Below, in pieces: positions 39,802-58,742 of a DNA stretch of 64,000 nt (its first letter is position 1; each line of letters opens with the position of its first letter). Below the pieces are notes generated by a model. The model did not search any database. It was not told the origin of the DNA and saw only the letters and a list, made by a program, of their open reading frames with translations. The stretch is from positions 2,944,001-3,008,000 of the forward strand of contig CH464491.1 in assembly GCA_000002445.1 (NCBI GenBank), read 5' to 3'. The position numbers and the translations under genes were made by a program. Source of the DNA: Trypanosoma brucei (taxonomy: Eukaryota).

Positions 39802-40620
39802 ATGCAAACGTCGCCGGTCCGTCTGGGGGCGCTCATCCGGTACGTATCGTTTCGGCACGCCCCTAAGTTCCGACAGCCACGCCCCGAGGAAGTTATCGGC
39901 CTACCGGTCAAGGAAACGCCGCCTCACTGCGTTCCTGCCTTTGTCCTTCCCGACTTTATCAACGAGGCGGAGGAGCGCGCACTCTTGGCGCTTACGGAGC
40001 CGTGGTTCTCGCGACTTCCGTGCAACGAGGGGCATATGGACGCACTGATACACCATTACAAGGAATTTTATCGATCCTACAAGGGGCTGATGGAGGGTGA
40101 GGGGGCGTGTGGGAGTTGTGAAGACGGATGCCGACATGTGCGTAGGGCTCTCGAGAGGTGTTGGAGCGCGGCAAGTGGATATGTTCCCGCCACGCCATTG
40201 GATGACAGAGTGCATTTCCTGCGGTTGAGCGAATGTGGGTTCATAAGGGCCCATGCCGATGACACCCGCAACTCAAGCGGCATCATTGCCGGGCTGTGCC
40301 TTGGCTCCGCAAGGGTGATGACGCTAACGCACCCCGACCACGCGGGGCAGCGAGTGGAACTCATGCTTGCTCCCCGTGCGTTTTACGTGCTTATGGGGGC
40401 GGCGAGATACAAATGGGAGCACAGCGTTGACTGGATAAGGGATGACGATGAGCACATCGAACGAGTTCGTGGCAGGGTGCCACCGGGCGAGAGATCACTA
40501 GTATTTGACGGAAAGGAAACGGAGTTTAGGCGAGGAGAGCGAACAGCTATTATTTTTCGAGGAGTTTCGCCCCTGGAGTTACTCAAACACAAGACGTTGG
40601 AAAGAAAGGGCCACACATGA
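39802..40620 (+). CDS. AlkB-like 2-oxoglutarate/Fe(II)-dependent dioxygenase
   Basis: The HxD motif is present in RAHADD. Other matching segments are IIAGLCLGSARVM, the second His in YKWEHSV, and the terminal RTAIIFRGV (the R-x-S-x-T-F-R-like 2OG-binding motif). Confidence 0.6.
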   Translation: MQTSPVRLGALIRYVSFRHAPKFRQPRPEEVIGLPVKETPPHCVPAFVLPDFINEAEERALLALTEPWFSRLPCNEGHMDALIHHYKEFYRSYKGLMEGEGACGSCEDGCRHVRRALERCWSAASGYVPATPLDDRVHFLRLSECGFIRAHADDTRNSSGIIAGLCLGSARVMTLTHPDHAGQRVELMLAPRAFYVLMGAARYKWEHSVDWIRDDDEHIERVRGRVPPGERSLVFDGKETEFRRGERTAIIFRGVSPLELLKHKTLERKGHT

Positions 40621-41039
40621 AGGGCATGATCCATCTGCACGTAAGCCGCGGCGTTTACCCAAATTGAGCTGTCATTCGCTTTCTCGGTTGGCGTGAATCA
40701 CGCGATAAATGTGTGAAGGGGGCTGAAGGATATTTTAGCAGCCCCCTGGGCGCGGTTGAGTGCGTATCGATAAAAGGGAGGGGGGCTGGGGGGCGGTCCA
40801 CGGCATGGGTGAGTGGAAGGGGACGTTTTGCCTCAGCTGCAGAGTGATACAATGTGCGTGGCCGCCACGTTACCCCCGCCTTTTTTTGGGGGGGAGCTTG
40901 CGAAAGGAATGGTCGATCTTTTCATATTTTTTATCGTATCAATGTTATTTTTTATCATTCTTCGTCTAGTCCTACTTCTCATGTGGTTAGACAAGTTATC
41001 GTTAGTAATTTGTTGGAAAAGGTGTAAGGTTTTTAAGTG

Positions 41040-43500
41040 TTATGACAGAATATGAGGAGAAAGAGCGGAAAACTAGTCTAGCAGCGCTTAGGAGGTTTGT
41101 GAAACATTGTGGTCCCACGCGATTTACATTCATTACCCGCATACCGTTGAGTAGAAATACAAATCAGGTAAACGGAACTTTACTACTGGAAAATGGAGAT
41201 CTGACTGTATGCGCTCAAGATATGAAAGCAAATATCGCGGATATAAGAGAGGATATAGCGTCTTTTAGTGTCCCTCAGCATCAAGATTTTATAAGAGCTT
41301 TTGAAGAAGCAAAAAATATGCTCAAAAATGAATTGGCAGCATTACAAGAACATAAATCAATATTAATGGTGCAATACGAAATGGCTCGTCCATAGTTGGA
41401 AGACGAACATTTAAGGATTTAACAAGCGGCAGTGAACCACTCAGCAGAAATGCAAGATGTTATACAAAATATGAAAAATCAAATGAACCGGATGCAGGTT
41501 GAAAACAATCAAATACTCAACTAATACGGTATGTTGCAAGGGATGTTAAACCAAAAGGAAACTGAAATACAGTATTGGAAATCTATGGTAAACTCACACG
41601 GGTCAACGAACAAAAAGGAGGAAGTGGACAGCTCATCTATGAAAAAGAAAGTCTATGATTGGAAAAGAGAAGAAAATGAAAAAAAAAAATTGTCACCATG
41701 TAATTCCTTGGATGATATTTTACGAAAGAACAGATGAATACACAACTCCAGGATAGGTTGGGTATTTTTCGGCAGTGCCGACGAAGAGTTGCAGGCGGAG
41801 AGGATAAAAACGAGGAGAGAAAATACACCTTCGAAGGATTCGTGGATTACGTGATGGAGACGTCTCCAGTACACATGTCGGCAGCATTTGAGGAAGTGTG
41901 CCCAATGAAAGTAAGACATGAAAGTTACTACTATAAGACTTGGAATATGTTCGTCAAACGGGTTCATACCATACCAGACGTGGGCCTTGCGGAGGCTTTA
42001 TTCCAACTGAGAAAAAAAAAAAATATATATATATATATACGGAACTGCGTATCCTACAAACGGCATCGATGTTTCCTCGAGTCAAAATCCAAGATATTCG
42101 TAACGGCCCAGAGTCATCACAAAATTCAAAAGACCAATTCTGGCAACTGGGGGAGAAACTAAATAAGGTAAGAGCTCCTTCCCCGGAAAAAGCCAAATGC
42201 TATGTGGCCGCATTGGACATTACAGTACGACATGTTATGTGAAGGAAACAGCGGTATGTAAATCAAAAAACGGGGTTCAACCCTCAGAGCAATAAATTGA
42301 GGGATCGTTAATGCCTTGGGGTCCAACCACATAAGAAAAAATTGAGTGGAAACATACCAAGAGAGAAGAAAGGAAAGAACACAAACACGCTTTACATCAA
42401 GGCGAAGAAATAAGGGCAGAAAGTTTGAAAAGGGTGAAAATAAAAGGATACTGGCTCAGATGGTCCGATCTCATCAGAAAAGAACTTCCTCCGTTAAAAA
42501 CCTCGGTAAACGGGGTAACGGTGATCCCGGCACCATCTCACGATCCGATCGTGGTGGCATTGGAAACAGAGGCCAACAGGATCGCCTTAAGTGCATGGAC
42601 AAAAACAACATGGGAGCAAAGGGTGTCCATACTACGGAGACTTTGCGAGTTTGCGGAAAAGAACAACATAGATTCGAGAAGGGAACGTCCCTTTATTCGT
42701 CCTAAGTTTACAATTGGCAAAAAGCAGCGCCGTCCAGTATAAAAGGACGTTATTAAGTTTATTGGCCGCTGTAAGAACACCGGCGCAGATGTTTCTGGCA
42801 TGCCTACAAAAATCAGCGACCAAGGTGCTGATAAAGCAGGCTAGCCCCATGGAGAGATGGGAACTCGACTAGATAAGCGATATGATGACTACGAATCGGG
42901 ATCGAGTGGCGTTGCGCCTGGCGCGGATTACGGCAAGTTGATGGGTAGAAATTGCCCTCCATCAAAAAGAAAATTTTATACCGCGTCCCACCGACAGAGA
43001 GGCTTCTCATACTAGATTGGGGAGCCCTTCCGAAAACGTTCAAGATCAACCTAAACATGGCGGCACGATACGTAGTAATAGGAGGAACAGACGCAAAAAT
43101 GGTTCGGGAACTAACGACAACATTGGAGGAAAACGAAAAAATTACCAACCTGTCCACAAAAGATTTGGAAAAAATACTCCGTCCCTATGGAATGACAGCA
43201 CACTCCATAAAAAGAGGGGCACTAGCCCATGCACCGACAGTGGTCTTCGAGCACGACCTCGACCCGCGTTTTTTAACCCAACTGGGAAAAACAGCGGATC
43301 CTTTGGAATTTCCACGCAGCACGGCAAGATATCTCGGGCATTGTGTAGCACTAATAAACAAATCAGAGCAATTGACTCAGCACGTGCAGAGGAGTTATAG
43401 AGATGGACTTCGGCCCGATGGGCGCTACCAACTGCATGTGGAGAAAGAGATCAAACGCTATTTCAGGGACATAGCATTCTGAGACGCACCCATCACACGA
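41040..43500 (+). other. Purine/A-rich degenerate region with fragmented coding-like ORFs; candidate decayed retroelement (DIRE/ingi-like remnant) or old pseudogene
   Basis: Several 100-180 aa ORFs lie in different + frames (41042, 41734, 42425, 42952) with protein-like but unrecognised composition. The + strand has strong A bias, with A12 and (AT)8 at 42012-42039. No intact RT or endonuclease motif was found. Confidence 0.25.
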
Positions 43501-46500
43501 GGGTGGCTACGGTGGAAGAAAACAAAATACCACTACGAAAAATATGCGTCAACACATTATCCTTGCACCGAATCAAAAACCGAATGAATAGCAAGGCGAA
43601 ACATCGTTTCGAGGAGGCGCGGGAGATCATGAGACAACCCACAAACCTGCAGGAAAGTGAAAGAGGATCTCAGCTAACAGTTTCTACCAAGGATGCCAGA
43701 ATCATGAAGAACGCAGGCATCGTACAAACGGTATCGGCAGCAACCCCCTTGGTTTGAGGTCTGGGAAGAGCTGTCCTCTACAAAGTGCCTTTCCACCTCG
43801 TTTACTTCCCCAACTTTTGCGACATCGGGAATTTAAACAGCCAACTGCGACCCCCGATATTCCGATTTCGACCGAATGCGGGTATCCTTTGATTCCTAAA
43901 CCCTGTAGCTGGCGAGGCCAACCTCCTTGACGTAGTGCTTGGGTTATGACGAATGGTTGCTGCACTCCTTTGTCACGTTCAACTTCTCCGACTCTCCACA
44001 TGGAAACTTTCTAACAACCCCGCCACTGACAGGATGATTCCGCCTGCCGCATCCGTGTCAGCCGCTTCGCCCTATAGGGTTAACCTTGTCCACTGCGCTT
44101 TGCGGGGCTTGCTGGGAGGGTGTCTGGGAGTGTCATCGCTGACTCTCCATTTTGTAACCACTTCGGTTGTTTTTTTCCCCTCTCCTTGTATCCGCACTTG
44201 CTGCGCGGATGGTCAGCCACACGTTTGTTCACGCTGTGTGGCACAGGGACCGCGCCTCTCATTAGATGCTCCTCGAAGTTTCCAGTTGGCAAGCGTCCCG
44301 CAACAAGTCCCCTCCCGCGTGTCAGATTCGCCATCCTTGCAACGGCAATACTTCCTATCTGACAGACTTTTCTCGCGTCTGCCTGTTTTGTGTCTTCCTA
44401 TTCCTCCACGGGCTCCCTCCTTAACTTTCTTCGCCAGTTTTCAACCCTATTCCCCCTTTTCAAATGGGCACGGGGTAAGTCCTCTCTCGAAAATGCGCGG
44501 TTGCAAGCAAAGCGCCTTCGAGCCTCACCACCACAGGTTATGGGTTCGCTTTGCCCTCTCCTTTTCTCTGTCTAGGAGTTTGTGGCCTTCGATCCCACCC
44601 ATTGCCTCGAGGCGATGCGAGTAACTATTTTTCATATCCTCATCACCATCTGGGGTCCCGAACAGGGTAATTGAATATTGCCGCAGGGTGCTGACTTCCC
44701 ACTTTTAGCCAAATGCACACCCCCATTTCGCAATGTTCGCGCGGCGAACCTACAAAATTTTCCCTTTCTCTTAGTCGCGATCTACGCTTTAGCGCCGTTG
44801 TCAACCCCCCTTCCCCGAAGAAACCGTGGGCTCAGGTATGCACACGCTAAGATTGTTGTCTTTTGTCCTGTTTTCCATTCCCCGCAGCAAGGAGTTCACG
44901 TTTTCCAGCGTTTCGTCCGCCACTGCCCCAGGGGAAGATGCGGTTGGGCACCGTACAAACCACCAGATTGCAGTGTCCTAGCCCCAGTTTCAGTAAGTGG
45001 AAACGGTGTGCCTAATCCGCTGGTTGGCGCCACTAAGCTTTGCTTTTGCCGTTTCTGCCTTCGAAAGCACTCCTATTTACACTCATTCCCGCATTTGTTT
45101 GTTTGGGGGGGGGGGAGGGAAGGGAAGTGCCACGCAGTGTCACCAAGAGTTTTTCAAGGTTTTGGCATAGACATGAACAAAGATGGCATCCCTCACCCGT
45201 GGTGGGCGGTTCTTCTTTGCAACGAACCGAATACCGACGGGAAGGTCACTCGTGCGTGTATCTGCCTAGCCTTGAGCAAACCCCCATACACAGCACATTC
45301 CTCGTCACACCCCCGCTCAGTGGGACCGGCGCGCTAGCAGCGTCAGTCTCTTACGTGCTGCGCTGTCGAATTCTAACTCCCCCGCCCGCCTCCACACGAG
45401 TGTATCAGCCTGCAATGCGATATGCGTTGCCGCTGGCTTCGTACACGGTGAAAATAACTTCTCTGTGTGGGCATACGCGGCTTTCCCTATGAGCCGCCGA
45501 TGCAATTCAGCGGTGATGATGTGTGGGCGGCACGGTCTGCGCATGCTCATTTTCGTTGGAAAACACAGTCGCACGCCACGTGCTTCGTTTGGCGTCACTT
45601 ATTGGACGTGCCCGCCCAGCCACCGTCACTCTAAACTGCCCACAAACGGCGAAGATGTATTAGGTTGCCACGATTGCCGCTGCTTTCGCATCGTTTGAGA
45701 AAACGAACGCGCGTCCTGCGTCGCCGTCGAGGAACCAACCCCATCCTTTCCACCTACCGGCAAAAAGAGGCACGCCAGTAAAACGGAAAATGAGATGCCA
45801 AATTACAGAGGTGCGCTGCCTGGCGCGACGGAGTCGCTGGCATCAGTGCATGATAATCGTTTCTGACCGGCACGTGGGGTGCTTAGTAGACCCGCTCCGT
45901 CACTGCGGAAGCACCTCGAGAAAGATTTTGTAGCCACCTGGGGCTGCAAGTCCCCGTACTGACACACGTGAACAAAATCAGAGACCGCGGTTTGGCATCG
46001 CCGTGGCAAATCACGTTGTGCACATAGCATGACCTGTTACCTACGCCTCCATAGCGCTCGGGCCTGGCACCTTGGCTCGCGGAACTGCGACAAGCCCGGT
46101 CCCTCTGGAATCAAATTTCATTCAAGGATGACACCGCCGCTGGAGTGTGTGTAGAAACAAGCGTCCACATGCGGCCCGCGTGCACCCAACTTTACCCTCG
46201 ACACCTAGGAGATCGGAAACGCCAACGAGAACTAAATTAACGTTATTGGGGGAAAAAAAAACACAACCGATGTCGCGTCCTACGGTCCTGATGTGGGGAA
46301 GGAAAAGGGTGACCCCCTGACCGCGGAAAAAATCGTTGGTGAGTGTGCGGTGCATACTTAGGCGTAGCGTATCCCGTACACCTGCGGATGTTTCTCCATC
46401 ACTCGACGTTTGACGCGTTAAAAGTAAAGACAAAACAGTCATACCTTTGGGACGAAAGTTAGGTGCGCTTAAGAAAAAAAAGGGGGGAGGGGCGACCGTG

Positions 46501-46657
46501 AACCCTTATCGTTGAAAGAACGAAAGACGCATGAATCGGCTGGGCAAAGATTTGTAGGAGTGTGCCACTGTTATCAATGCCCCTCAGGGGTTCGAGCATC
46601 ACTTGTCAAATCGGTCTGAACAGCGCGAGGCCGGCAAAATTTTGGTTGCCGCCACGC

Positions 46658-47016
46658 GTCGGAGAGGGGTGGGGAGTATGTGGCGCTAGTACCCGCCGTC
46701 AGCATCGCGTGGGCTTATTTTCTTCTGGGTCTTCTTCTGAGCACTTACCCTGTATGAAAGGCTGGAGTGGCAGAAAAGACGTGTCCTTGATTTATGCGTA
46801 CCACACCTGCCTCTTACATTTTCTGTTGTTGCATACGTGTGTGCGGGAAGACGTGGTGACTACTCCGGTCTTCTCGCCGAGCACCTCATGTGCCTTGCTC
46901 GAGTGCTGAGTCTACGCGGCGCGACGGGTGGGCAGTAGGGGGGGGGGCTTGTACATAGAAAAAAAAAACTAGAGCCACCGGATGCTCTTTGTGCGACCCT
47001 GGTGAAAGTGAGAAAG
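46658..47016 (+). repeat. Direct repeat copy A (~358 bp), 150 bp beyond the 3' end of the minus-strand sialidase-family gene
   Basis: Near-identical to 52250-52607. It contains G10 and A10 homopolymers (gggcagtaggggggggggcttgtacatagaaaaaaaaaactagagccacc). Confidence 0.9.
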
Positions 47017-47165
47017 AGATAAAGTAAAACCAGTAACCGGAATTATCCGGTGAAGCAGTCGGCCGTGTGTCACCGTCATTCCTAACATGTGACCCCTTAG
47101 AGAGACTGACTCGAGAACCAGAGCGATTTCTATTTGCATTCTGAGTCCGTACTGTCCTGCAGTTT

Positions 47166-49211
47166 TCAAAAAGTGACAACAAAGATCATAGCAGCAAGCG
47201 CCACATATACGTGCGTTGCGTTATCAATTTGCCCGTTGCTGTGACCCTCCTGTGGTTCATCAACAGCAACTAGAGGTGCCTTTGACGGGCATCTAGGCCA
47301 GTACGTTCGCATGAACATCACTTGGACTTCGGCAAGGGTCAACTCCCTTTTGAAAAGAACAGCACTCTTCACCAGTAGTTTTCCATTGGGAGTAGCTTTC
47401 TTCTCTCCATATCCTCCAATATAGAAATGCATAACATCTCGCACTCGCCTAACAGTCTTGATACCGCTTCCCGTCCTCGAGAAGGCGGCACCATCGATAT
47501 TAACAGTGAACAAACCATTGTACATGGTTATCGTAACTTGGTGAGTCTCGTTGTGGATGGAGGATCCAAATGTAGGCACATGCCGGCCCCCAAACGTTAC
47601 GTACCATTTGTCATCCGATGTGTACGACACTTCAAGACACTCGTCGACACTTCCCTCGCTGATGACAACGCCCACAACCGGGATTTTTTCACTCACTCGG
47701 TCAGGCACCTCCACAGTCACCCCAAGTGTAAATTCATAATTTGCAAAGTTGTAAAGCTGAGCCCCCGTGTGGTTGCTCACAGTCCATGTGGCACCCCGAT
47801 TAGGGCCACTAAATAATATACCATTCAATGTTTTCTTAGCCCCAACAGCTTTGATGCTCACGCTGTTATATGTGTCCTTCCACTGATCACCATCTAAATC
47901 ATTCAAAAAAAGCCCAGCGGGTGCATCATCAACACAGTTTACGCGGTCGGTGGCTCCTCTGGTTCCGGAACGGAGCACACTCTCGGTCCTCCATTTTTCC
48001 ACAACCGCTTTTATCTTTTCGAGTTCATGATCTAAATGCGCAACCTTGCCTATGTCATAGGGTACCGCGTTGCTTACCTCATCATGAAAGGTGCCAGTTT
48101 TTTTGTAGAAGTAAAGCAGTTTGCCGTTGCTGTACAGCAGTGTCCCTTCACCATCTATTCCACCTTCAAGAGTGACGTGACCAATATCAAAAAAATGTTC
48201 GCCATCAGATAGCCAAATATTGAGCCCATCCCCATATGAGTCAGTCGACGGTGCGCGCCGGGTGAAAATCAACAACCTTTTCCCTTCAATTGTGACAACA
48301 AGCAAGTTGTGTGATCCACCTTCGGCTGCACCACTGGCCCACACACGCGAGAACGTCCTCTTGGCTTCCGTCCATTCCCTTCCCATATTGATGGATTCAT
48401 AAACAGCCAAGTGACCGGTATACGAGCCGTTGCTCAACATAAGCCTCCCTCCCCATTCAAAGATGTTGCAATTCTCCTTGCATACATGAGCTTCTAGGGG
48501 TGTCGACTTCCAGTGGATACCGTCGTCCACGGAATAAATTATTGTGGGTACGTCTTCGCTATTCTCGTTCTTTAAACAAACGAGAAATACAAGTAAACCC
48601 CCTTCAGTGACGATTGCATCCCTTCTTCCTCGGAAAAACTTGTTCACTGGCCCCGCTTGAAGTCCAGTGGGGAAGACCCCCTTCAACGGCACCTGTTTGT
48701 TCCACTCTACACCAGCTGATTGCGAAAAAAAACCTCTCGACCTTACAACTTTCCCAGAAATTAGAAGGAGACTATCTTTGCACTCACTTATCGTTACCTT
48801 GCCTAAGCCATCGCCTTGCACATCATACCCGCTTGCAAGCACATACACATTGCTCCCTTTGGCAACTACTTCAAGTGGTATTGGATAGGAAGAATACTCC
48901 ATCTCCTTTCTTCCTTCAATTATGTTGTCCTTTTTCCATGTCCTCCCCCCATCTATGCTCGAAAGTGAAAACGTTCTTAGCCTTACTTCACCAGCCAGGT
49001 GATATCTGAATTCTCCGATTGCAACCAACACACCTTCAGCCTCGACGACGGAATGAATATGTACGGCATCAACGACGGAGAGCAAGAAACTGCCCTTTTC
49101 TTCCCCGTCGAAAAGATCAAATTCATAAACATCCGGTGTCTTAGCAATACTACGTGTCCAGCCGATGTTGCACAGGACAAGTAACAGTAAAATGAGTATT
49201 TGCATTCTCAT
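47166..49211 (-). CDS. Trans-sialidase/sialidase-family surface protein (681 aa), probably catalytically inactive
   Basis: The N-terminus has a signal peptide (MRMQILILLLLVLCNIGW). Asp-box motifs S-x-D-x-G-x-T/E-W occur at SIDGGRTW, SVDDGIHW and SINMGREW. The stretch VYESINMGREWTEAKRTFSRVWASG...TIEGKRL...NIWLSDGEHFFDIGHV...GTLLYSNGKLLY aligns with the T. cruzi TS catalytic domain, including the conserved Tyr. The C-terminal lectin-like domain carries a degenerate VTVxNVxLYNR motif (LLVKSAVLFKRELTLAEVQVMF). The hydrophobic C-terminus (ALAAMIFVVTF) suggests GPI anchoring. ATG and stop codons were verified on the minus strand. Confidence 0.8.
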   Translation of the reverse strand: MRMQILILLLLVLCNIGWTRSIAKTPDVYEFDLFDGEEKGSFLLSVVDAVHIHSVVEAEGVLVAIGEFRYHLAGEVRLRTFSLSSIDGGRTWKKDNIIEGRKEMEYSSYPIPLEVVAKGSNVYVLASGYDVQGDGLGKVTISECKDSLLLISGKVVRSRGFFSQSAGVEWNKQVPLKGVFPTGLQAGPVNKFFRGRRDAIVTEGGLLVFLVCLKNENSEDVPTIIYSVDDGIHWKSTPLEAHVCKENCNIFEWGGRLMLSNGSYTGHLAVYESINMGREWTEAKRTFSRVWASGAAEGGSHNLLVVTIEGKRLLIFTRRAPSTDSYGDGLNIWLSDGEHFFDIGHVTLEGGIDGEGTLLYSNGKLLYFYKKTGTFHDEVSNAVPYDIGKVAHLDHELEKIKAVVEKWRTESVLRSGTRGATDRVNCVDDAPAGLFLNDLDGDQWKDTYNSVSIKAVGAKKTLNGILFSGPNRGATWTVSNHTGAQLYNFANYEFTLGVTVEVPDRVSEKIPVVGVVISEGSVDECLEVSYTSDDKWYVTFGGRHVPTFGSSIHNETHQVTITMYNGLFTVNIDGAAFSRTGSGIKTVRRVRDVMHFYIGGYGEKKATPNGKLLVKSAVLFKRELTLAEVQVMFMRTYWPRCPSKAPLVAVDEPQEGHSNGQIDNATHVYVALAAMIFVVTF

Positions 49212-52200
49212 TGCGAAAAACTCTTAGGGTACGGAAATAGTCTCCCTGCAGATGTGCGCGGTGTGTGCTTGATCGTTGTGAGGGCACCCTGAGTACTTTG
49301 GCGGTGGTACTCTTCAACTGGCTGCGTGCGGGTAGTGTTTTACAGAAAGGGGACAAATTACCTAACTTATGTATATAGCCGAAAAAAAGGGGTGACAACA
49401 CAGCACTTACAAACGGTGACATCATAAATATTAGGTACGAATGCTTATGTAATATGTAGCGGTGCCCTCAAATACTGAAGCGATCAAGGAACCAAAGTTG
49501 GTTTTGCACCACATCGGTGAGAGGTCCCCGATACGTCATGCGAGCCCCTAGAAGACTGCATTAACAGTGACAGGTCAATGCACTAAGATATCCTGAATCA
49601 CCGGCGGTGTATAGCTTGGCAAAAACTTCTCGCTTCCACTATTAGTTGCTGCAAAATTTTGCACGGCACTTGAAAAATATGTGGTATAAAAGCAAAGAAA
49701 AAGTGTTCGAGCCAAAACGCATTGCACCGAAACACTGTCTTCTCCCTCACCCCAACCCTGCTACGTTAACAGGTCACCAAAGTTCGTCACCGAACAAGGA
49801 CAAGATGTTCATTATTAGGAAGCAACTAATCCTTATGCACCTCGAGTTGCAGAAACTATTTCTTTTTTTGGCACCCGAATAACCCAGTGTATTACAACTC
49901 TTTTTTTTAAAAAAATGAAGTAGTAATAGCCTTTTCTCCATTAGTTTTATTCGTCCATATGGCGAAATTGAACCTGTCACTTGCATATAGCCAATCTTTC
50001 TTCACCCATCGTCGGCGTGCGTTTTCACATTTACTGCCCACTTGTGTGTAAAGACGGACGCACGAAACAATGGTTTGCAGGACAACGAGGGAAATCAAGC
50101 CATACCATAGCCGCCTACTTTCTAAACCATCTCGTATCTGTTTGCACATTCAAGGGGAATGGTTATTTCCCACTGGCTGCTACAGTCAGTGAATCGTAAT
50201 AAAGACGCTACACGGGTATTGAAAGCACAGGCGAAAATACGTAGGACAACATCTAATCGACACAATCTTCGCGGCAATTATAGTCTTTTCCCTACAATGG
50301 GAAACGCACTCCGCATGGTGACCCGCGTACAAACGCATGGATCTGCGTTTGTGCATGTTTGTTAAAAAAAAAACAACAAACAAACTATGTTAGCCCATCA
50401 TTTCAAAGCATCCATTTGCCGTAAGAAAGGTAAGCCCAGACCGCGGTTTCCCCACAACTTACCGCCAACACGAAGCAGCCGCTCGCAGCCGCGCCCCAAC
50501 GCAAACGCATGGGACCTCTCGCCCGTTGGGGCGTGAGAGGTCCCCGTGAGTTTCGGTGGGCAGGCGGGGGTAACAACGTGAAAGCTCCCTCCGCCCATTT
50601 CTGGGCTATGATGAAATATTAGCTCCGCCACCCCTCCTGAAGCTTCCCTTCCGCATACCGGGCGTCGCTTGCTGCCACCGCGAGGAAATACGAATCACCG
50701 ACGACATATCGGCGGGTGTGGTGGGGGAAGCCAGGGGGTGGACAACTAAACAGAGTGGTATCCCAACAAAGCGCAGCTGGCCCCCCGCCGTCCGACGCCG
50801 TAGCTTGCGAGCAAGGGGGGACCGTTACGGAGATGAGGAATGCTGGTGGTTCTTTAGTTATCCCATACATACGGGACAGCGGGCCCAGCGTCATGAAAAC
50901 CCCTTTAAAACGCCTAAAGGGACGGAAGCAGCGACTGTTGGCCCCGAAGCACGCCCACAAGAGCATGGAGGTGCCTTGGAGGGCGCTCCGCAGACTGGCA
51001 TGCAATTTCTTTGTCCTTTTAGTCGTGTTAACCCCTCACCTTTTCCTGTGGAAGGCGTGTCGGCTGCTGATCTGAACGAAGCGGTGAATGACCACTGCCA
51101 CTCCCGGCGCTTGGACGAGCGGCCAATTAAGGGCATGACCTTCGCAAAGAAAGTTGGAGGGCCGGGGCGCTATATGGGAAAACCCCCCTCGACGACGTGA
51201 GGAAGCTGTCGCACACGATTGAATCTAGTTCCGTGAGTTTCCCATGAAGGTCCTTAATATGTTTTGATTTCGCTCCAGAAGCTTACTTCGCAACCTTTGA
51301 GTGATTGATGCGCTTTCGCAAAGATTGCTCCACTTTCACCTGTTAACATCCTCGCTCTTTGAATTTCAAGGGTCACAATCATTAGGTTTCGAGGAATCAC
51401 TCAAAAAAACCTCTACCAAGCCCGGAAAATTCCCCTTCCAGGTGCTGTCAGAGGAAGTGCTGCTTCCGAGATGCGTGGTCCTTTGTTCGACCCCCTCCCG
51501 TCCCTCGAGAGGGTGTCGTCCACTCCATCTTTGGAGGAATCGGATAACGGCGCCCCCGTCCTTTACAGCGGAAGAGTTCCTCCTCCCAACGAAAGTTCTG
51601 CCCTAGCACCCAATTTACTGGCTAACGACTGGGAATTTGCCGTTCCGTGTTGGTATTGAGTACTCCCTCCACTTTAACCCTTCTTGATCGCCATGGCTGT
51701 GCGTCAGCTTTGTTTCGACCGCTTTGCAAAAAAAGAAAAAAAAATGCCATCCCCTCCCGAGCCGTCCTCCGTGCTCCTTCGCCGAGGAAAAGCGTATTTT
51801 ATCTGCCGGGGCCGGGAGCGCCTCTAGGGGAAGGAAAATAGCGTAAACCCCCTCGCCAGCGCGGTGGTAGTTGGTGGTGGCACTAGCTCAAACAGGTGCG
51901 GAGCTCGCACAAAACTTGTTGTAGGTTTTTTTTTCGCGAGGATGGGCATCGTCTGGCAAAACCGAGAGGTGGCGAGCGCCGTTGCTATTGCCCCCAAAAC
52001 TGGGAGACTTCAGTCAGCGGTGTAGCGATTAAGGATGCGACGCGTACGGTTGTCGCCGCCGCTCCTCCGGTTCCCAGGTTCCCTCTTTCCGAAAAAAAAT
52101 TTGTTCAGTAAGGCAATCCCACTGGCAATTCAGACCTGCCGTCTCTTTGTTTCCTACAGTGAACCTTCGTTATTATTATTATTATTATCACAATAGTTGT

Positions 52201-52249
52201 ATGTGTGAGGTTATCCGGAGTGCGCGTGACTCAGCCGAGCGTATGGGCT

Positions 52250-52607
52250 TCGGAGAGGGGTGGGGAGTATGTGGCGCTAGTACCCGCCGTCAGCATCGCG
52301 TGGGCTTATTTTCTTCTGGGTCTTCTTCTGAGCACTTACCCTGTATGAAAGGCTGGAGTGGCAGAAAAGACGTGTCCTTGATTTATGCGTACCACACCTG
52401 CCTCTTACATTTTCTGTTGTTGCATACGTGTGTGCGGGAAGACGTGGTGACTACTCCGGTCTTCTCGCCGAGCACCTCATGTGCCTTGCTCGAGTGCTGA
52501 GTCTACGCGGCGCGACGGGTGGGCAGTAGGGGGGGGGGCTTGTACATAGAAAAAAAAAACTAGAGCCACCGGATGCTCTTTGTGCGACCCTGGTGAAAGT
52601 GAGAAAG
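52250..52607 (+). repeat. Direct repeat copy B (~358 bp), ~3 kb upstream of the sialidase-family gene start
   Basis: Essentially identical to 46658-47016, as also shown by the identical ORF translations 46562/52147 in the track. Confidence 0.9.
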
Positions 52608-55085
52608 TTTCCAACGGTCTATTCTCGGGTTACCTCTTCTGGATTTTTACCGAAGTAGTCCCGCTGTCTTTACATGTGCGTAGCGACGCTGGTTGCCGCT
52701 GCATGTTTTGTCTTCCGTCTTAAGGTTGCGGTGGCCCAAAAGTCTACAAGCTGTTTGGAGGCTACTGTGGCGCACGGCGTCTGTTTTGTGGCCCTGTCGA
52801 ATGTTGCTTTTTGTCATTTGTGTTGCGTGCATGTCGTGAGCGGTGGATAAAGATATGCGACATTTACAGTATATGCTGGTTTCAACAGGTAATGCTGGTG
52901 CCTACTAGGTCGTAAAATGTCGTTACGGGACCTTGCAAATTTTGGACGGCGTCGAATAAGAGGAGTGCCGAATGCAAAGGTGTTGTTGCACTAACCTTAG
53001 GAATGCGAAAATTTCGTGTTGAAGTACCTGCTGCATTCGCATACAGGTAGAGAATTGGTTGATAATACTTTCCGGCCTCCGAGTTACGTCACTCTGTTAG
53101 AGAGCAGAGTTGATTTTTTATTAATGTGGCAATCGGGACGTATATGGTACATGTCAACCCCTTGTTGCCACGGTGAGGTCTGTGACAGGTGTGCGTGCTG
53201 TTTTCACGTTAGAATCGTGTAATAAGTGTTTACAAGGTTGGGAAATCTGACATTTCTTCCACCCAAATTCTCAAACGCGTTTCCTCGTATGGAATCTGCG
53301 TTGGTTTTTGGTTGATTTGTATACACAGGACTAATGTTTTTTGTACTCGACGGTGAGGGTTGCCGGAAATATCAGGATGGTGTTAATAACCCTCCCCCCA
53401 TCAAGGATAATAAGCAAAAGGAGGGAGGCGGGAGCGGGGGGCCATTTGCTGACTGTTTGGCCTTTGGCGCGGAGAGGGGCTTGACGAGGTACAATGTGTA
53501 GAAATTTGAAACTTTTGTTTTCTATCATTGGAATTATATATATTTCTCCGTGTAGTGAAATGATCCTTTGACGGAACTTGAAAGTTTTTTTAATGATCTC
53601 TCTCTCTGTTTTTGTGGAGTAGCAGCCGCTTTTCTTTCATTTACTTTGAATGTATTAATGTGCTTAGGGGAAAAGACGCTTACTCGTGTTTCCCTGCTGG
53701 TACACTCACCGACATTTTATTAGGACAAACACACCCGCGTATATAAACAAAACAATTTTGATGTTGCGGCGGTTGCTACTGAAACAATGGTGCCAGCCAA
53801 ACGGTGGATGACTGGGATAAAACTTCGATACCATTGTGGAACGAGTAGAGGGGAAATAAAGTTGGTGCTGCCCTAGCCGTCCCAGAACTCTTTAGATCCA
53901 CCCCGCTGGGACGACCCCATCTGTATACCATGGGATGTGATACCCAATTGGCACTCTTTTTGCATTTCCCCCCCTCCAGGATAGGAGCCGGGGGCGTTTA
54001 TCATGCTCTTTTAAAATTTCTGTTGATAGGTCTTCACCATTTTCAGAAAAGAAACAAAACAGTTCGTGCAGGCAGGGTTCCGTTCTAAGTCGCTTGGACT
54101 GGGAGCGGACTTGCTAAACGTGTCTGATTTCTGACACACTTGGTGTGATCGTCACCGTAAACACAGACGTCTTGGCGATGCTCCCCCCGTAACTGGCTGA
54201 TTGTAGGTTGCACACATTTTGCACGGCTTGTTACCACGGCGTGTGAGGGAGGTGCGATACTAACGACCATAGAAAAACAATCGAAAAAAAGGTCCGCCCC
54301 TTCGTTTGCCATGAGTGAGATTATGTGAGCTACCTCAGCGATCTTTCCTGGATTCAGTGAGAATGCGTATTGAATCCTATTGAGACCCTAGGGATGCACG
54401 GCGGTGTAATTGTCCATAGATGTCTATAACCCGTGGTACATTTCCAAGTAAGGTATGTTGAACGCATTCGTTTATCGGTCGTCCGTTTAGCAATGGCCAA
54501 GAAGGGTTAAAAACTCAAGACATTGGAGCCTTCGCGATTGTGGTGTGGGGAATAATGACGTATACATGTACGTAATGTTCGACGGCATTTGGCCCATCTC
54601 AAAATGGAGTTCGTTTTGGTGGGTTCGGACTAAACATGGACTTAATTTATTAAAGACGGTGAGCAGATGATTTGTTGCAATACGTAAATAAGTTTCCCCA
54701 AGGAGAAACCTGGCGAATATTTTTGGCATGTGATAGCATATTAACCGTCAAATGTAACACCCCATTCAGCGGCAAAACCTCTTTCTGAAACCTTGCTCGT
54801 TCGTTTTACTACCATCACGCTCATATCCGGCCCTTAAGGGGCTGAAAGGTTTGCAAGCGGCTCCGTCGATAATTTCCTATCGACGTGGTCTATTCGCATA
54901 GCATGTGTTGTATCATACTGTGTTCATTTTTGTCGATGGGTGCATGTGTGTGGGCGCTTCGTATTTTTTCCAATTTTACTTCATCCGAGCAACGAAGTCA
55001 AATAACACCATTCGAAGCAAACTATGGAACCCCTGCGTTGTCATCGCAATTTAAGAAGTAGACTATGCACGTGTAGACGCTAACA

Positions 55086-55110
55086 CCCCCTTTTTTTTTT
55101 GGGGGGGGGG
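55086..55110. repeat. Homopolymer triad C5-T10-G10 (cccccttttttttttgggggggggg)
   Basis: Read directly in the long intergenic region. It is self-complementary at its ends and could form a hairpin. Confidence 0.8.
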
Positions 55111-56279
55111 TGATTGATTGAAAATATTGTTGTTGACATTCCGATCATTACTTTGGTTACCGGAGTGGCAATCCCGCCTGAAAGCGTCGCGCAGGTAAGC
55201 CTTTTTATCATTATGTATGCGTTTCGGTATATATATATATTAGGCTCAGTACTTGCCGTCTCTGTTTTACTCGGGTTATGGCTGCTGCTACCCTACTGTT
55301 ACCTTGTTATTTGTCAGCGGTTGGGGTCTCTTCATTTTTACAGTGGAGGTGCTTGTGGATAAGAGGCACCTACGAACTAACGTAGGTTTGTACCAATCAC
55401 TCACTCATGCCATCTGCCATGAGGCGGGTGCTAGCGGAGATAGGCACGTCTTTCCCGTAGAGTAACCTGCGCTTTTTTGACTGCTGCGGTGTTTGGTTAG
55501 TGCAATCTACAAGTTTACGTGATTATTTGTGGTAGTTCCTTTTTTTTTTTTGAGGAAAGAAAAGTGTCTTTGCACCATAACGCTGTATCCAAGCTATTGC
55601 CGGCGCCATGGAAAGATATTTTCATATGTATATTACATACAACTTAATTTCCAGGGAATGCGCTCAGTGTATGAATGCTGTACACATTCTTTTTTTTTTT
55701 TGCATTCTTTGCCTGGAAACAGCGGTAAATGTGAACTGCCTGAAAGTGTGTCTAAGTTATTTTTTCCATTCACTTCACCGCCCAACTCGGTGTGGTTGAG
55801 TTTCCCATGGCCCAGTCGGTGTGATATCTGTTATTACATATTTTTTGCGACCATTTTGTTTCGCGTTTTCTACTTGAGCATGTTATGACCATGACCACCA
55901 AAAGGATCAGAATTACCATTTCCCACTGTGTTTTTCTCTACTAACGCCTCAACGCCAGTGCCGCGCCAGCAAACATCTTATATCATAGGGGAAGAATTGT
56001 TTGCAGTCTGAATCAATTGTGTTTGGGTAGTACTGGATCGTGCTCCTGTTTTCACATTTTGAGATGTTGCGAGTGAAAAGGATACCAAGGGACCGCTTAC
56101 CGGCTTCTACTTACTCGGCCGCGGCTGTACGCCTCTTGTAAGCATATTCTTAAGTTGCTCCCTTTTCATGTCTCGGGTGGGTGTTTAATGAAATCGGTTT
56201 ACAAACTACTAGATTGCACTTCAGATGATAGGAGGGAGCTGGAACTCAAGACAGTTGGAGTGCCCGTTTCTGGGTAGCA

Positions 56280-56292
56280 AGGGGGGGGGGGG
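56280..56292. repeat. Poly-G tract (13 G)
   Basis: Read directly. Similar G-runs occur at 11075, 45104, 46931 and 52531. Confidence 0.8.
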
Positions 56293-58742
56293 AAATTGAT
56301 GTTCTTTGTTCTAAGAAGTTGCTTTTGTATGCGGGATGGAGGTTCGACAAGGCTTCTGCTTTGCGGTAGAGGTTGCTGTTAGCACTGATTTCACTCGTAC
56401 TTGGGGGGAACCCTGCCATTAATAAGCAGTATGTTTGAGGGAGCAGCTCATCTTTCTTATTATTGTGCAGTGCCCCGTTCCACCTTTCTGCTGGGTCCGC
56501 GCAGTTCTCTCAGCAACGTGTGCGCGGATCTAATCCATAGATTCAAGGAACGAAGTCTTTTTCGACGGTCATAGCTGTTGAACTTCCGGCTCGGTTGGGT
56601 CATGAGCAGTGAATCGTGGTAGCGGTGCACCAGAGGTGTGGGTCTCTGTTACAATTTTAAAGGTTGCTATTGGTTTGCACGATCACATCAGAGTTGACAC
56701 AGCACTTGCACTCCTGCTGGGGTCCAGGGTGTATTGAGTGACTTGCACCTTCCTGGTGCCGTCGGTTACCGGTTCCTGCGAAAAACTTTTTGGCACGTGT
56801 TGACGAACCCCGCTGCTGGTGTGTGGTGTTCTGTGCAAACTTTTTTTTTTTGAGCAGCACTAATTTCCAGCCAGCTGAGGATCTTTTCTACAGCAAAGTG
56901 GGGAGGGCAGGGAGACCTCGTGCTGGGACTGATGAAAACGCGCTTTCTTAAAAACATGGTTAGTGTACCGCTCTCCTTGTTGTTCCGAAAGCGAGTATGT
57001 TTCGGAGTTGTCTTGCCTCCAGCAACATGATTTGCAGTGAATTTCAACTGCTAAAAACAATGTGAATGCCCAAGGCGTAACATGCTTGCTGTTCCGCCAA
57101 ATAAACTAGTGTGTGATTGTGCTAAAAGGAAATGCAAAAGGATTTGAAACCTTACGTTCAGATCTTAAAGAACTGTGAGACCCCTTTTTTTCTGGATGGC
57201 ACTCAATTACTTCCCTGGTTGGAGGAGTCACAGTTACAACCTGGCCAACTTACATGTCGTAGTACAAGCCCCCCTTTCAAGAAGGTAGCTCTGGGTTAAG
57301 CAGAAGCTGTTATGTGATGCCTGCTATTTATACCGCGGTTCTGACTCACTTCTTTTCGTGCTATCAACAGCGGTTTCTTTGCACTGGTCGACGACTAGTG
57401 TGATTTAACGGGAATTTGTTGTGGTAGGTAGCCGAAATTGGCTTCAGGTGCATCACGTAAAATTCCTCACCAGTTGTATTTTCGTCGGCACATCCTCGTC
57501 ATCGGAATCTGTTGTCGCACTACCTTGAGTGGATCCGTGACAGAGTGGGTAATTTCCGGGGCGTTGTTCTGGTGCTTACTAGAGTGGGCTCGTTGTTTTC
57601 AAGTCAAACATATCTTCAGGATAAGGGGCGCCAATAGGCACGTGGCTACCCCCTCCCCTAGTGAGAGGATTTGTCGCGCTTTTGGCGGGTGTATCCAGCC
57701 GTTTTTTTTTTGCTGAACCGCTACGGCTCGTGGGGCTTGGCATTATGCTGGTGCCGAGTGCCTATGCTTAACAGAAGAGTCGGCAATCGTTAAGTGTCCC
57801 CTGTGTTGCTGAAGGAGGGGTCTTCTGGTGAACCGGCTCCGTTTCGCTAAAGTTCCCTTAGTTTTCGGCGGCGGCGTTACGTGGTCAGAAATTGTTGTGA
57901 TTACTGCCAAGGCACTGCGGTAGTTGCTGTGTTAACACGCTCAGGGACTACTTAATCTTTTACTGAGCTGTGCGCTCTCGTGTTTGCACCGTTCTCCATG
58001 GGTTGCCTAACGGAACAGCACTGTGTGCGGCAAGTCGAAGGAAGTAATTAGCCATGCAGGTGAGAAGATGCCACCCACACCAAGTGGTGATGTTACTGGT
58101 TCCGTGGGTGGTTATATCGACTGAAGCAAACAAAAACATATGGTTATAGTATTGGTTTTCGCAACTGTCGCTTCAGCTGCGGCGGCTGACGAGGCCCACA
58201 GGCTGTGAAGCACTCGTCGGTGTCGACCCTTTTTATCTTTCTTGAGACCGCACTTGTCAAACATTTCATCTTGATACCCCTACTTGTAGGCAGCGCGGCG
58301 CCTTTGTGGTTTGACATTTGGCACCACTAAACATGTGTGTTGTTGTCTCAGGGTTCGGTCCTCCGGCTACGTTTAACGGGGGTTATGTGAGAATGATAGG
58401 GGAGGGTTTCCGTTTTTTCGCCACCATCTGGGTGATGTGGGTGGTGGCGTTATCAACTGAAATACAGTTGCTGTTTGCGCGCGCTGGCGTCAGCAAGGGG
58501 GGATATCGTTATGGTCTTAGTACTTTTATTATTTTACTCGCACAAGTGTTTCTTGGTACGGAATGGAGTCGTACTCTTCGTATCAAGTTTCTTACGCTTT
58601 ACCATTGCTGCTTAAGTAAAGAAAAAAATAATCACCATTATGATCTGTATCTGTTTGTACCACGCTTCAGTGAAGGCTCAAGGTTATCTACGTAGTAATA
58701 CACGTGTATATTGCGCGTGGGAGGAGAGGCGCTGGTAAACGG

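What the first reader, a model, noticed from the sequence alone, without database searches (positions are those of the whole stretch)
46658..52607. A lone minus-strand sialidase-family gene lies in a 5.9-kb segment bracketed by ~358-bp direct repeats inside an otherwise +-strand region
All other genes in the window are on the + strand. The only minus-strand gene (47166-49211) and about 3 kb of its upstream sequence lie between two essentially identical direct repeats (46658-47016 and 52250-52607). Each repeat carries G10 and A10 homopolymers. This geometry is what one would expect from insertion of a surface-protein gene cassette by recombination between repeats. It could also reflect a partially deleted tandem array in which the repeat is a conserved 3'-flank element. 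Either way, a variable surface-protein gene appears to have been embedded between two housekeeping units, creating a local convergent plus divergent strand-switch pair.
Basis: partly seen in the sequence, partly recalled or inferred. Interest (0 to 1): 0.6.

Follow-up and report, generated by a model that had tools for sequence, protein, structure and literature searches.

The report
Repeat-flanked reversed trans-sialidase-like gene
In Trypanosoma brucei chromosome 11, one old, enzymatically degenerate trans-sialidase-like gene sits backwards in an 18-kb gene-poor junction between two gene clusters, and the two 358-bp repeats around it match because they copy-correct each other, not because the gene arrived recently.

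Summary
Two direct repeats (46659-47016 and 52250-52607; 358/358 identical) bracket the only minus-strand gene in the window. Each repeat carries a G10 and an A10 run.

The window is T. brucei TREU927 chromosome 11. The gene is Tb927.11.11410, already noted in print as lying in reverse orientation within a transcription unit.

The layout recurs, with the same repeat boundaries where both ends are covered, in T. b. gambiense DAL972 and in a PacBio assembly of T. b. equiperdum. A T. equiperdum OVI contig is consistent with it. It is therefore not an assembly artefact or a collapsed array.

Two haplotype groups differ at 7 sites. At all 7, both copies within a genome agree. This shows gene conversion between the copies, so their identity says nothing about how recent the arrangement is.

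The gene is not a recent or variable cassette. T. congolense has a fragment that looks like a positional orthologue, and the coding sequence is conserved.

In Leishmania, T. cruzi and T. melophagium, the upstream gene cluster ends in a convergent strand switch after the 2OG-oxygenase gene. No trans-sialidase gene is there. The T. brucei segment 40.6-58.7 kb is therefore a lineage-specific rearrangement junction.

I found no support for a decayed tandem array, and none for a structured RNA. How the repeat first arose is unresolved. This is an ordinary locus with modest interest.

The parts
46659..47016 (+). Left copy of the 358-bp direct repeat (R). It begins 150 bp beyond the stop codon of the minus-strand trans-sialidase-like gene, so it lies in or just past that gene's 3' UTR.
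   Evidence: A published qRT-PCR primer maps to about 47072-47093, so the mRNA reaches to within about 55 nt of R (together with the sequence).
52250..52607 (+). Right copy of R, about 3.0 kb upstream of the trans-sialidase-like gene's ATG. It sits where GC skew changes from negative to positive.
47017..52249 (-). Unique segment U between the repeats. It holds the trans-sialidase-like gene and 3.04 kb of upstream DNA with no supported gene.
   Evidence: Pfam found nothing for ORFs 50718-51200 (+) and 50622-51035 (-).
47166..49211 (-). Tb927.11.11410, a trans-sialidase-like protein of 681 aa. It has an N-terminal signal-like segment and a C-terminal hydrophobic tail. The catalytic Arg and Tyr positions are substituted.
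46938..46968 (+). G10 run, 11 bases, then A10 run inside left R. Together with the preceding GGGTGGG it forms a canonical G-quadruplex motif (46926-46947).
52529..52559 (+). The same G10 run, 11 bases and A10 run inside right R (G-quadruplex motif 52517-52538).
40621..58703 (.). 18-kb gene-poor junction between the last conserved gene of the upstream cluster (2OG-Fe(II) oxygenase, 39802-40620) and the first conserved gene of the downstream cluster (cullin, most likely TbCUL1). It is lineage-specific relative to Leishmania, T. cruzi and T. melophagium.
41009..43479 (+). A-rich stretch of frame-shifted, protein-like ORF pieces, read as a degenerate element or pseudogene. This is the most diverged part of the locus between T. 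b. brucei and T. b. gambiense.
   Evidence: No Pfam, PHROG or PDB match.
43953..44624 (+). 223-aa ORF annotated as a hypothetical protein (possibly Tb927.11.11400; I did not confirm the ID). It lies in pyrimidine-rich DNA, has no homologue in other species and is probably not a real protein gene.
58704..61160 (+). Cullin gene, most likely TbCUL1 (Tb927.11.11430). It is the first conserved gene of the downstream plus-strand cluster and is followed by dynein light chain LC8 at 62439-62711.

Best explanation
The window is T. brucei TREU927 chromosome 11, around Tb927.11.11410.

Shown: Leishmania, T. cruzi and T. melophagium all keep the order RACK1, UPF0301/DUF179, a small ORF, then 2OG-oxygenase. 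In each, that cluster ends in a convergent strand switch against a cluster containing COX15 and a metallophosphatase.

Shown: in T. brucei that boundary is replaced by an 18-kb gene-poor junction, followed head-to-tail by the cullin/LC8 cluster. In T. melophagium the cullin cluster lies about 185 kb away on the same contig, in the opposite orientation.

Inferred: an inversion or rearrangement in the African-trypanosome lineage created this junction.

The junction contains degenerate element debris and several long plus-strand G runs. Its only bona fide gene is a very divergent, catalytically degenerate trans-sialidase-like gene on the opposite strand. That gene has its own polypyrimidine/AG signals about 110 nt upstream of its ATG.

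Inferred from gene numbering and 43% identity: the gene has been at this place since before the T. brucei / T. congolense split.

The 358-bp repeats are a local duplication of non-coding junction DNA. They are GT-rich and carry a G10 run, like the DNA to the right of the right-hand copy.

Shown: the two copies are kept identical by gene conversion between them.

Inferred: the repeats have no dedicated function. They are a by-product of the event that placed or re-flanked the segment. Their practical effect is to make the 5.6-kb unit a substrate for homologous recombination. Conversion is demonstrated; pop-out deletion or tandem duplication is possible. All three assemblies that span the unit show exactly one copy.
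For: Identity of the locus: the protein is 100% identical to XP_829206 / Q383D7. The gene ID and its reverse orientation are in PMC10064699.

Repeat and layout in independent assemblies.

Concerted evolution: at alignment columns 89, 98, 204, 210, 283, 287 and 304, both TREU927 copies read C,T,A,C,G,G,A. Both copies in DAL972 and in IVM-t1 read G,G,G,T,-,A,-. The OVI contig carries the TREU927 type.

Neutral-looking divergence: the repeat differs by about 1.8% between subspecies, against 1-2.6% for surrounding non-coding DNA and 0.2-0.8% for coding DNA.

No structured RNA: z-scores of -0.04 and +0.82. No Rfam or tRNA hit.

Sharp repeat ends, no residual flank homology and no second trans-sialidase remnant. 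No other R-like copy in the 64 kb.

Synteny: T. cruzi L006, T. melophagium L005 and L004, T. theileri L003, L. infantum L010.

Age of the gene: T. congolense TCIL3000_11_12070 is 43% identical over residues 512-679, including the C-terminal tail. The T. congolense UPF0301 orthologue is TCIL3000_11_12040. The closest T. brucei paralogue is only 29% identical, and the nearest non-Trypanozoon representative is 32%.

Constraint: 7 synonymous against 5 non-synonymous differences.

Composition: the repeat has G 116, T 92, C 82, A 71. GC skew changes sign at the right-hand copy.
Against: How the duplication arose is not shown. I could not search the rest of the T. brucei genome, so R could belong to a dispersed family or also flank other loci.

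T. congolense positional orthology rests on gene numbering and a 220-aa fragment. Neither its DNA nor its orientation was available.

R carries one of only five G runs of 10 or more bases in the window. All five are on the plus strand and all lie within 45.1-56.3 kb. From memory (Siegel et al. 2009, not held in the library), long G runs were reported at probable Pol II start sites in T. brucei, so a role in transcription initiation or chromatin cannot be excluded.

Only two haplotype groups were sampled: TREU927/OVI and DAL972/IVM-t1.
Confidence: 0.55

Rival explanations
1. Cassette insertion. On this reading, segment U (the trans-sialidase-like gene plus its upstream DNA) entered an ancestral A-R-B site. 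The route would be single-crossover integration of a circular molecule carrying one R, or insertion at a long staggered break that duplicated 358 bp of target. R-U-R would then be the scar of that event.
For: The homology ends sharply on both sides and the flanks share nothing. That is what one integration event predicts. The gene is absent from the equivalent position in T. cruzi, T. melophagium, T. theileri and Leishmania. The unit sits in a rearranged junction next to debris of a degenerate element.
Against: The identity of the repeats is explained by gene conversion and carries no information about age. The gene probably occupied this place before the T. brucei / T. congolense split. No donor locus, no close paralogue (29% or less) and no recombinase or transposase is associated with it. 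This reading also does not exclude the best explanation; it differs only on how the duplication began.
Confidence: 0.2
2. R is a functional element present twice. It could be a piece of the Pol II start region or a chromatin boundary, given its G10 run and G-quadruplex motif and its GT-rich plus strand. It could also be an mRNA-processing or regulatory module on the minus strand, where it reads polypyrimidine tract, AG, T10, C10. On this reading the pair brackets and insulates the opposite-strand gene.
For: All five G runs of 10 or more bases lie on the plus strand within 45.1-56.3 kb, two of them in R, and the window has no C run of 8 or more. All five canonical G-quadruplex motifs in the window are on the plus strand within 44.1-56.3 kb, and the motif survives in both haplotypes. 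The right-hand copy lies at the GC-skew sign change. On the minus strand, R begins with a polypyrimidine tract followed by AG. The gene is strongly derepressed (logFC 4.4) when ZC3H41 is depleted, which suggests it normally sits in a poorly expressed context.
Against: Divergence in R between haplotypes is about 2%, as high as in neighbouring non-coding DNA. There is no excess RNA structure. The G10 run itself is interrupted and shortened in the gambiense-type haplotype (GGGAGGGGG). No transcription or chromatin data could be examined. The link between G runs and start sites is recalled from the literature and not verified here.
Confidence: 0.15
3. R-U-R is the remnant of a tandem gene array, or a collapsed representation of one. 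On this reading R is a conserved 3'-flank or intergenic element.
For: The TREU927 reference is known to collapse tandem arrays such as HSP70 in this same window (PMC8459984). RACK1 has 2 copies here but 3 in IVM-t1. The T. equiperdum OVI contig equals exactly one period.
Against: The PacBio IVM-t1 assembly is continuous across the locus with exactly one unit. A TBLASTN of the trans-sialidase-like protein against the rest of the window finds nothing better than E = 0.77. Sensitive BLASTN of 2.5-kb flanks finds no decayed homology. The OVI contig ends fall inside the G10 run of both copies, which is a simple assembly break.
Confidence: 0.05
4. Assembly artefact: the repeat or its perfect identity was created by mis-assembly or consensus polishing.
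For: The identity is perfect, the repeat contains homopolymers, and one short-read assembly breaks there.
Against: Three independent assemblies made with different technologies show the same boundaries and spacing: the TREU927 reference, DAL972 and PacBio IVM-t1 (technologies stated from my own knowledge). DAL972 and IVM-t1 keep copy-specific differences (columns 20, 177, 259), so the two copies were resolved separately.
Confidence: 0.02

Closest known systems
Tb927.11.11410, putative trans-sialidase of T. brucei (UniProt Q383D7; noted in PMC10064699)
   Same: It is this gene: the protein is 100% identical. [quoted passage not shown]
   Different: The only paper I found that discusses the gene does not mention the flanking 358-bp direct repeats, in the passages and supplements I read. 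I also did not find their concerted evolution or the ancestral convergent boundary at this site discussed.
Repeated sequences flanking genes in Leishmania that mediate circular and linear amplicons (Ubeda et al. 2014, PMC4028189)
   Same: Direct repeats of a few hundred bp bracket a gene-bearing segment. The copies recombine, as the gene conversion here shows. In principle the geometry allows RAD51-dependent pop-out as a circle or tandem duplication.
   Different: No amplicon, deletion or copy-number variant was seen in any assembly that spans the unit. Membership of a dispersed, SIDER-like family could not be tested. T. brucei is not known, to my knowledge, to use this route routinely.
Strand-switch regions and head-to-tail boundaries between polycistronic transcription units in trypanosomatids
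   Same: The segment lies between the end of one conserved gene cluster and the start of another. It is gene-poor, shows a skew reversal, carries long G runs and contains debris of a degenerate element. Those features are typical of such boundaries (partly from my own knowledge).
   Different: It holds a functional-looking opposite-strand gene bracketed by a perfect direct repeat. Start and termination marks were not examined.
Catalytically inactive 'TS-like' members of the African-trypanosome trans-sialidase family (TconTS-Like1-3 and TbTS-like genes; Gbem et al. 2013, PMC3855035)
   Same: Same two-domain architecture (BNR_3 plus TS_C). The positions of the arginine triad and the nucleophile tyrosine are substituted. 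Identity to active enzymes is 20-30%.
   Different: Which named TS-like gene it corresponds to was not established. Its only near relative found outside Trypanozoon is the 220-aa T. congolense fragment TCIL3000_11_12070.

Membership tests
Trans-sialidase / sialidase family (fold) | N-terminal beta-propeller sialidase domain (BNR/Asp-box) plus a C-terminal lectin-like trans-sialidase domain | tested here: met
   Pfam BNR_3 at 4e-31 (residues 54-364) and TS_C at 2.4e-36 (residues 433-625), both above the curated cut-offs. An Asp-box, SSIDGGRTW, is visible in the translation.
Trans-sialidase / sialidase family (active enzyme) | Conserved catalytic residues of T. cruzi trans-sialidase: the arginine triad, the acid/base Asp and the nucleophile Tyr (residue list from my own knowledge of the T. 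cruzi enzyme) | tested here: not met
   In the BLASTP alignment to T. cruzi sialidase TCNA, VAIADARY aligns with VAIGEFRY (Asp to Glu). NTRVDW aligns with SNGSYT (Arg lost). VRDRLNLW aligns with YGDGLNIW (Arg lost). SAYSS aligns with DGEGT (nucleophile Tyr lost). The FRIP-like motif reads VHIHSVV. The protein is TS-like and is not expected to be an enzyme.
Mobile gene cassette, transposon or LTR-type element | Terminal repeats together with an encoded recombinase, transposase or reverse transcriptase, and multiple copies | tested here: not met
   Segment U has no Pfam-detectable enzyme ORF. The window holds no further copy of R or U. Copy number across the whole genome could not be tested.
Tandem gene array | Two or more head-to-tail units that share the gene, or decayed remnants of a second unit | tested here: not met
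   No second trans-sialidase remnant (best TBLASTN E = 0.77) and no flank homology. Tandem Repeats Finder reports nothing in 40-59 kb. The PacBio assembly shows one unit.
Concerted evolution (gene conversion) between duplicated sequences | Paralogous copies within a genome share substitutions that distinguish genomes or haplotypes | tested here: met
   There are 7 diagnostic sites (5 substitutions and 2 homopolymer-length changes). Left equals right in TREU927, DAL972 and IVM-t1, and the two haplotype groups differ at all 7.
Boundary between polycistronic transcription units (strand-switch or head-to-tail region) | Lies between the last gene of one conserved directional cluster and the first gene of another | tested here: met
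   In L. infantum, T. cruzi and T. melophagium the cluster ends after the 2OG-oxygenase gene and meets a convergent cluster. In T. theileri and T. melophagium the cullin gene is preceded by 10 kb or more without conserved genes.
Boundary between polycistronic transcription units (strand-switch or head-to-tail region) | Chromatin marks of initiation (H2A.Z, H2B.V, H4K10ac) or termination (H3.V, H4.V, base J) | not testable with these tools
   No ChIP or nascent-RNA data were accessible. The only indirect hints are the plus-strand G runs and the skew profile.
Leishmania-type amplification repeats | Direct repeats that flank a segment and generate extrachromosomal or tandem amplicons | tested here: inconclusive
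   The flanking direct repeats and recombination between them are shown. No amplicon or deletion was seen in the assemblies that span the unit. Population read-depth data were not available.

The most novel reading that the evidence does not exclude
The R pair might be more than a scar. One possibility is that it works as a recombination switch, allowing T. brucei to excise, lose or amplify the 5.6-kb trans-sialidase-like unit, as Leishmania does with its repeat-flanked genes. Another is that it forms a matched pair of G-run / G-quadruplex boundary elements that insulate a single opposite-strand gene inside the start region of the downstream transcription unit. In either case gene conversion would be preserving the pair.
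Probability: 0.1. Interest if true: 0.6.

Novelty: new member of a known kind. Interest (0 to 1): 0.25.

Why it matters
The main value is as a caution and a small case study. Perfect identity between flanking repeats was read as a sign of recent cassette insertion. Comparison with other assemblies shows instead that the copies homogenise each other, so identity carries no dating information.

The locus also shows how a lineage-specific, opposite-strand surface-protein-like gene can sit at a rearranged boundary between transcription units in T. brucei. This may help explain its low and unusual expression: it is derepressed about 20-fold (logFC 4.4) after ZC3H41 knock-down.

If the repeats proved to act as boundary elements or to drive excision and amplification, the locus would be a convenient natural model. 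It would allow study of single-gene transcription and repeat-mediated copy-number change in African trypanosomes. Nothing here shows that yet.

Tried and rejected
- **Structured RNA or RNA gene in R.** Rfam at gathering thresholds and ARAGORN found nothing in the whole window. Folding either strand gave z-scores near 0. Rejected.
- **More R copies in the window or in other trypanosomatid loci.** Sensitive BLASTN and nhmmer found none.
- **Tandem array remnant.** TBLASTN of the trans-sialidase-like protein against the masked window, sensitive flank-against-flank BLASTN and Tandem Repeats Finder were all negative.
- **Pfam on six-frame translations of the gene-poor stretch.** The tool refuses sequences containing stop codons. 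I then scanned ten stop-free pieces of 40.8-43.9 kb and four pieces against PHROGs, with no significant hit.
- **Possible tyrosine recombinase at 42949-43479.** The piece contains HSIKRGA...RYLGH, which reminded me of tyrosine-recombinase boxes as in VIPER/DIRS-type elements. The PDB sequence search was negative. The single-sequence AlphaFold model had pLDDT 41 and is unusable, so I ran no fold search. The idea remains an untested lead.
- **Older gene IDs and T. congolense IDs in the literature.** No hits.
- **siRNA-producing convergent units (PMC3447711 supplement).** The table lists only v4 coordinates, which I could not map to this window.
- **Literature support for G runs at start sites.** Siegel et al. 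2009 is not held, and the phrase was not found in the library. That link therefore rests on my memory.
- **T. congolense DNA.** The cullin orthologue has no contig on record, so neither orientation nor the presence of R in T. congolense could be checked.
- **The word-index protein search.** It found almost no trans-sialidase relatives. The exhaustive HMMER search was needed.


Full report
**Observation.** A self-comparison of the window finds three repeat families. One is the pair 46656-47016 and 52247-52607. Alignment shows a core of 358 bp that is 100% identical (46659-47016 = 52250-52607), with homology ending abruptly on both sides. The start-to-start spacing is 5591 bp. Each copy contains a G10 run and an A10 run. 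Between the copies lies ORF 47166-49211 on the minus strand. It is the only minus-strand ORF of 150 aa or more that is not merely antisense to a larger plus-strand ORF. It has the two Pfam domains of the trans-sialidase family, BNR_3 and TS_C.

**Identity of the locus.** The protein is 100% identical to T. brucei brucei TREU927 XP_829206 / Q383D7 and to the T. equiperdum OVI protein. A 2023 paper names the gene Tb927.11.11410. [quoted passage not shown]

The downstream cullin is most likely TbCUL1, Tb927.11.11430. The window also carries:
- a dynein heavy chain;
- two HSP70 paralogues;
- a gamma-tubulin-complex protein;
- two RACK1 copies;
- a UPF0301/DUF179 protein;
- a 2OG-Fe(II) oxygenase;
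- dynein light chain LC8.

The lone reversed gene is therefore already known. I did not find the repeats discussed in the papers I could search.

**Is it real?** The T. b. gambiense DAL972 locus (L002) is collinear with window 37189-59213 at 98.6% identity and has both repeat copies with the same boundaries. Two abutting loci from the PacBio assembly of T. b. equiperdum IVM-t1 (L007 and L009, separated by 97 bp) give continuous sequence across the region. They show one unit and a repeat spacing of 5581 bp. A 5598-bp contig of T. equiperdum OVI (L001) equals window 46945-52538 and breaks inside the G10 run of both copies, which is an ordinary assembly break. Assembly artefact and collapsed tandem array are thus excluded for these genomes.

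**Why the copies are identical.** Aligning all available copies shows 7 diagnostic sites, 5 substitutions and 2 homopolymer-length changes. At every one, both TREU927 copies carry one state. Both DAL972 copies and both IVM-t1 copies carry the other state, and the OVI fragments carry the TREU927 type.

The OVI coding sequence is identical to TREU927. Effectively, two haplotype groups were sampled. Independent evolution of the two copies cannot produce the same 7 changes twice, so the copies have exchanged sequence by gene conversion since the haplotypes diverged.

A few copy-specific differences remain in the gambiense-type haplotype (columns 20, 177, 259). They show that the assemblers resolved the two copies separately. 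Divergence in the repeat between haplotypes is about 1.8-2%. That matches neighbouring non-coding DNA (1-2.6%) and exceeds coding DNA (0.2-0.8%). The sequence is not under visible constraint, and its perfect identity within TREU927 says nothing about the age of the arrangement.

**What the repeat is not.**
- There is no Rfam family and no tRNA.
- Neither strand folds better than shuffled sequence.
- No other similar sequence exists in the 64 kb or in the fetched loci of other species.
- There is no decayed homology beyond its ends and no remnant of a second trans-sialidase gene.
- No tandem repeats occur in 40-59 kb.

The 'partially deleted tandem array' idea therefore has no support.

**The gene.** An exhaustive HMMER search of 1.84 billion representatives finds nothing closer than 32% identity outside Trypanozoon. 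The closest T. brucei paralogue is 29% identical. One short hit stands out. TCIL3000_11_12070 of T. congolense (220 aa) is 43% identical over residues 512-679, including the C-terminal hydrophobic tail. The T. congolense orthologue of the UPF0301 gene is TCIL3000_11_12040, three gene numbers away. That matches the T. brucei order: UPF0301, a small ORF, 2OG oxygenase, then the trans-sialidase-like gene.

I infer that a trans-sialidase-like gene already lay here before T. brucei and T. congolense split. Between TREU927 and DAL972 the coding sequence differs at 12 codons, 7 synonymous and 5 non-synonymous, which is consistent with mild purifying selection.

Alignment to T. cruzi sialidase shows that the positions of the catalytic Asp, two arginines and the nucleophile Tyr are substituted (the residue list is from my own knowledge). 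This is a TS-like protein, not an enzyme, and not a 'variable' surface gene.

**The surroundings.** L. infantum, T. cruzi and T. melophagium all keep the order RACK1, UPF0301, a small ORF, then 2OG-oxygenase. In all three that cluster then meets a convergent cluster: a gene of about 315-373 aa, COX15 and a metallophosphatase. None has a trans-sialidase gene or a homologue of the 223-aa ORF at that position.

In T. theileri and T. melophagium the cullin gene is followed by LC8, as in T. brucei. It is preceded by at least 10 kb without conserved genes. In T. melophagium the two blocks lie on one contig, about 185 kb apart and in opposite orientation.

The head-to-tail arrangement in T. brucei is therefore derived, most simply by inversion of the cullin block. 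Window 40.6-58.7 kb is the resulting junction. It contains the following.
- An A-rich stretch of frame-shifted, protein-like ORF pieces (41.0-43.5 kb). One piece has a 32%-identical counterpart, with an in-frame stop, 9 kb upstream of the T. melophagium cullin. I read this stretch as debris of an old element. It is the most diverged part of the locus between subspecies.
- A 223-aa ORF in pyrimidine-rich DNA with no homologues, which is probably spurious.
- All five G runs of 10 or more bases in the window, all on the plus strand at 45.1-56.3 kb. There is no C run of 8 or more anywhere in the window.

**How it most likely works.** The trans-sialidase-like gene has a polypyrimidine tract and AG dinucleotides about 110 nt upstream of its ATG. 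A published qRT-PCR amplicon extends about 95 nt past its stop codon, to within about 55 nt of the left repeat. It therefore behaves as an ordinary trans-spliced gene, placed on the opposite strand in an inter-cluster region.

The repeat is GT-rich on the plus strand, like the DNA to the right of the right-hand copy. GC skew changes sign at that copy. My best reading, at confidence 0.55, has three parts:
- R is a locally duplicated piece of junction DNA.
- It was generated by whatever event placed or re-flanked the 5.2-kb segment.
- It has since been kept uniform by gene conversion and has no dedicated function.

The repeats do make the unit a potential substrate for pop-out deletion or duplication. 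That is the logic established for repeat-flanked genes in Leishmania (PMC4028189). All three assemblies that span the unit show one copy.

**Rivals.** Cassette insertion by single-crossover integration or a long target duplication (0.2) fits the sharp repeat ends and the absence of the gene in other lineages. It is not dated by the repeat identity and must be old if the T. congolense inference holds. A functional element, whether start-region or boundary element or a processing module (0.15), is suggested by the G-run and G-quadruplex content and by position. It is not supported by conservation or structure, and it cannot be tested without chromatin and nascent-RNA data. A tandem-array remnant (0.05) and an assembly artefact (0.02) are effectively excluded.

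**Verdict.** The gene and its reversed orientation are already known. The repeat pair, its concerted evolution and the ancestral convergent boundary are small additions. Interest is 0.25, and the kind is a new member of a known kind: a repeat-flanked segment at a boundary between transcription units, undergoing gene conversion.

Noticed in passing
window 34232-35490 and 35537-36795; L007 6052-9619: The RACK1 (TRACK) gene is a 99.6%-identical tandem duplication in this window. The PacBio assembly of T. b. equiperdum IVM-t1 has three copies, so copy number varies or the reference is collapsed.
   Followed up: partly
window 19244-21274 and 27037-29109: There are two HSP70 genes (Pfam HSP70, E = 1e-227 and 1e-260). 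Their first 700 bp or so are 89-91% identical. A paper states that the HSP70 array Tb927.11.11330 (about 8 copies) was collapsed to one copy in the TREU927 reference.
   Followed up: partly
window 41009-43479 (+); L004 528-914 (-): This is an A-rich stretch of protein-like ORF pieces in alternating frames. Piece 41009-41392 is 32% identical over 129 aa (E = 2e-12) to a stretch with an in-frame stop, 9 kb upstream of the T. melophagium cullin. Piece 42949-43479 contains HSIKRGA...RYLGH, which is reminiscent of tyrosine-recombinase motifs as in VIPER/DIRS-type elements. Pfam, PHROG and PDB searches were negative, and the AlphaFold model was unusable at pLDDT 41.
   Followed up: partly
window 45105-45115, 46938-46947, 52529-52538, 55101-55110, 56281-56292: All five G runs of 10 or more bases in the 64 kb lie on the plus strand within 11 kb, around the reversed gene. 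The window has no C run of 8 or more. All five canonical G-quadruplex motifs are also on the plus strand, within 44.1-56.3 kb. From memory, long G runs were reported at probable Pol II start sites in T. brucei; I could not verify that here.
   Followed up: partly
L005 and L004 (T. melophagium contig JAJSEB010000011.1, 5684-27351 and 192399-214825): The UPF0301/2OG block and the cullin/LC8 block lie on the same contig, about 185 kb apart and in opposite orientation. This suggests that the T. brucei head-to-tail order arose by inversion of the whole cullin cluster.
   Followed up: partly
L001 (T. equiperdum OVI contig CZPT02001515.1, 5598 bp): The contig equals one repeat period and both its ends fall inside the G10 run of the repeat. 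The homopolymer inside a repeat fragmented that assembly.
   Followed up: yes
window 43953-44624 (+): The annotated 223-aa hypothetical protein is rich in Ser, Leu, Pro and Arg. It lies in pyrimidine-rich DNA (GC skew about -0.2, AT skew about -0.25) and has no homologue in T. cruzi, T. melophagium or T. theileri loci. It is probably not a real protein-coding gene.
   Followed up: partly
window 50400-51200: This is a GC-rich patch (55-59%) upstream of the trans-sialidase-like gene, with overlapping ORFs on both strands (160 aa on plus, 128 aa on minus). T. b. gambiense annotates a 115-aa hypothetical gene there. There is no Pfam match.
   Followed up: partly
window 41000-43500: Divergence between T. 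b. brucei and T. b. gambiense peaks here at 2-3.8% per 500 bp, several times the level in flanking genes. That is consistent with unconstrained element debris.
   Followed up: no
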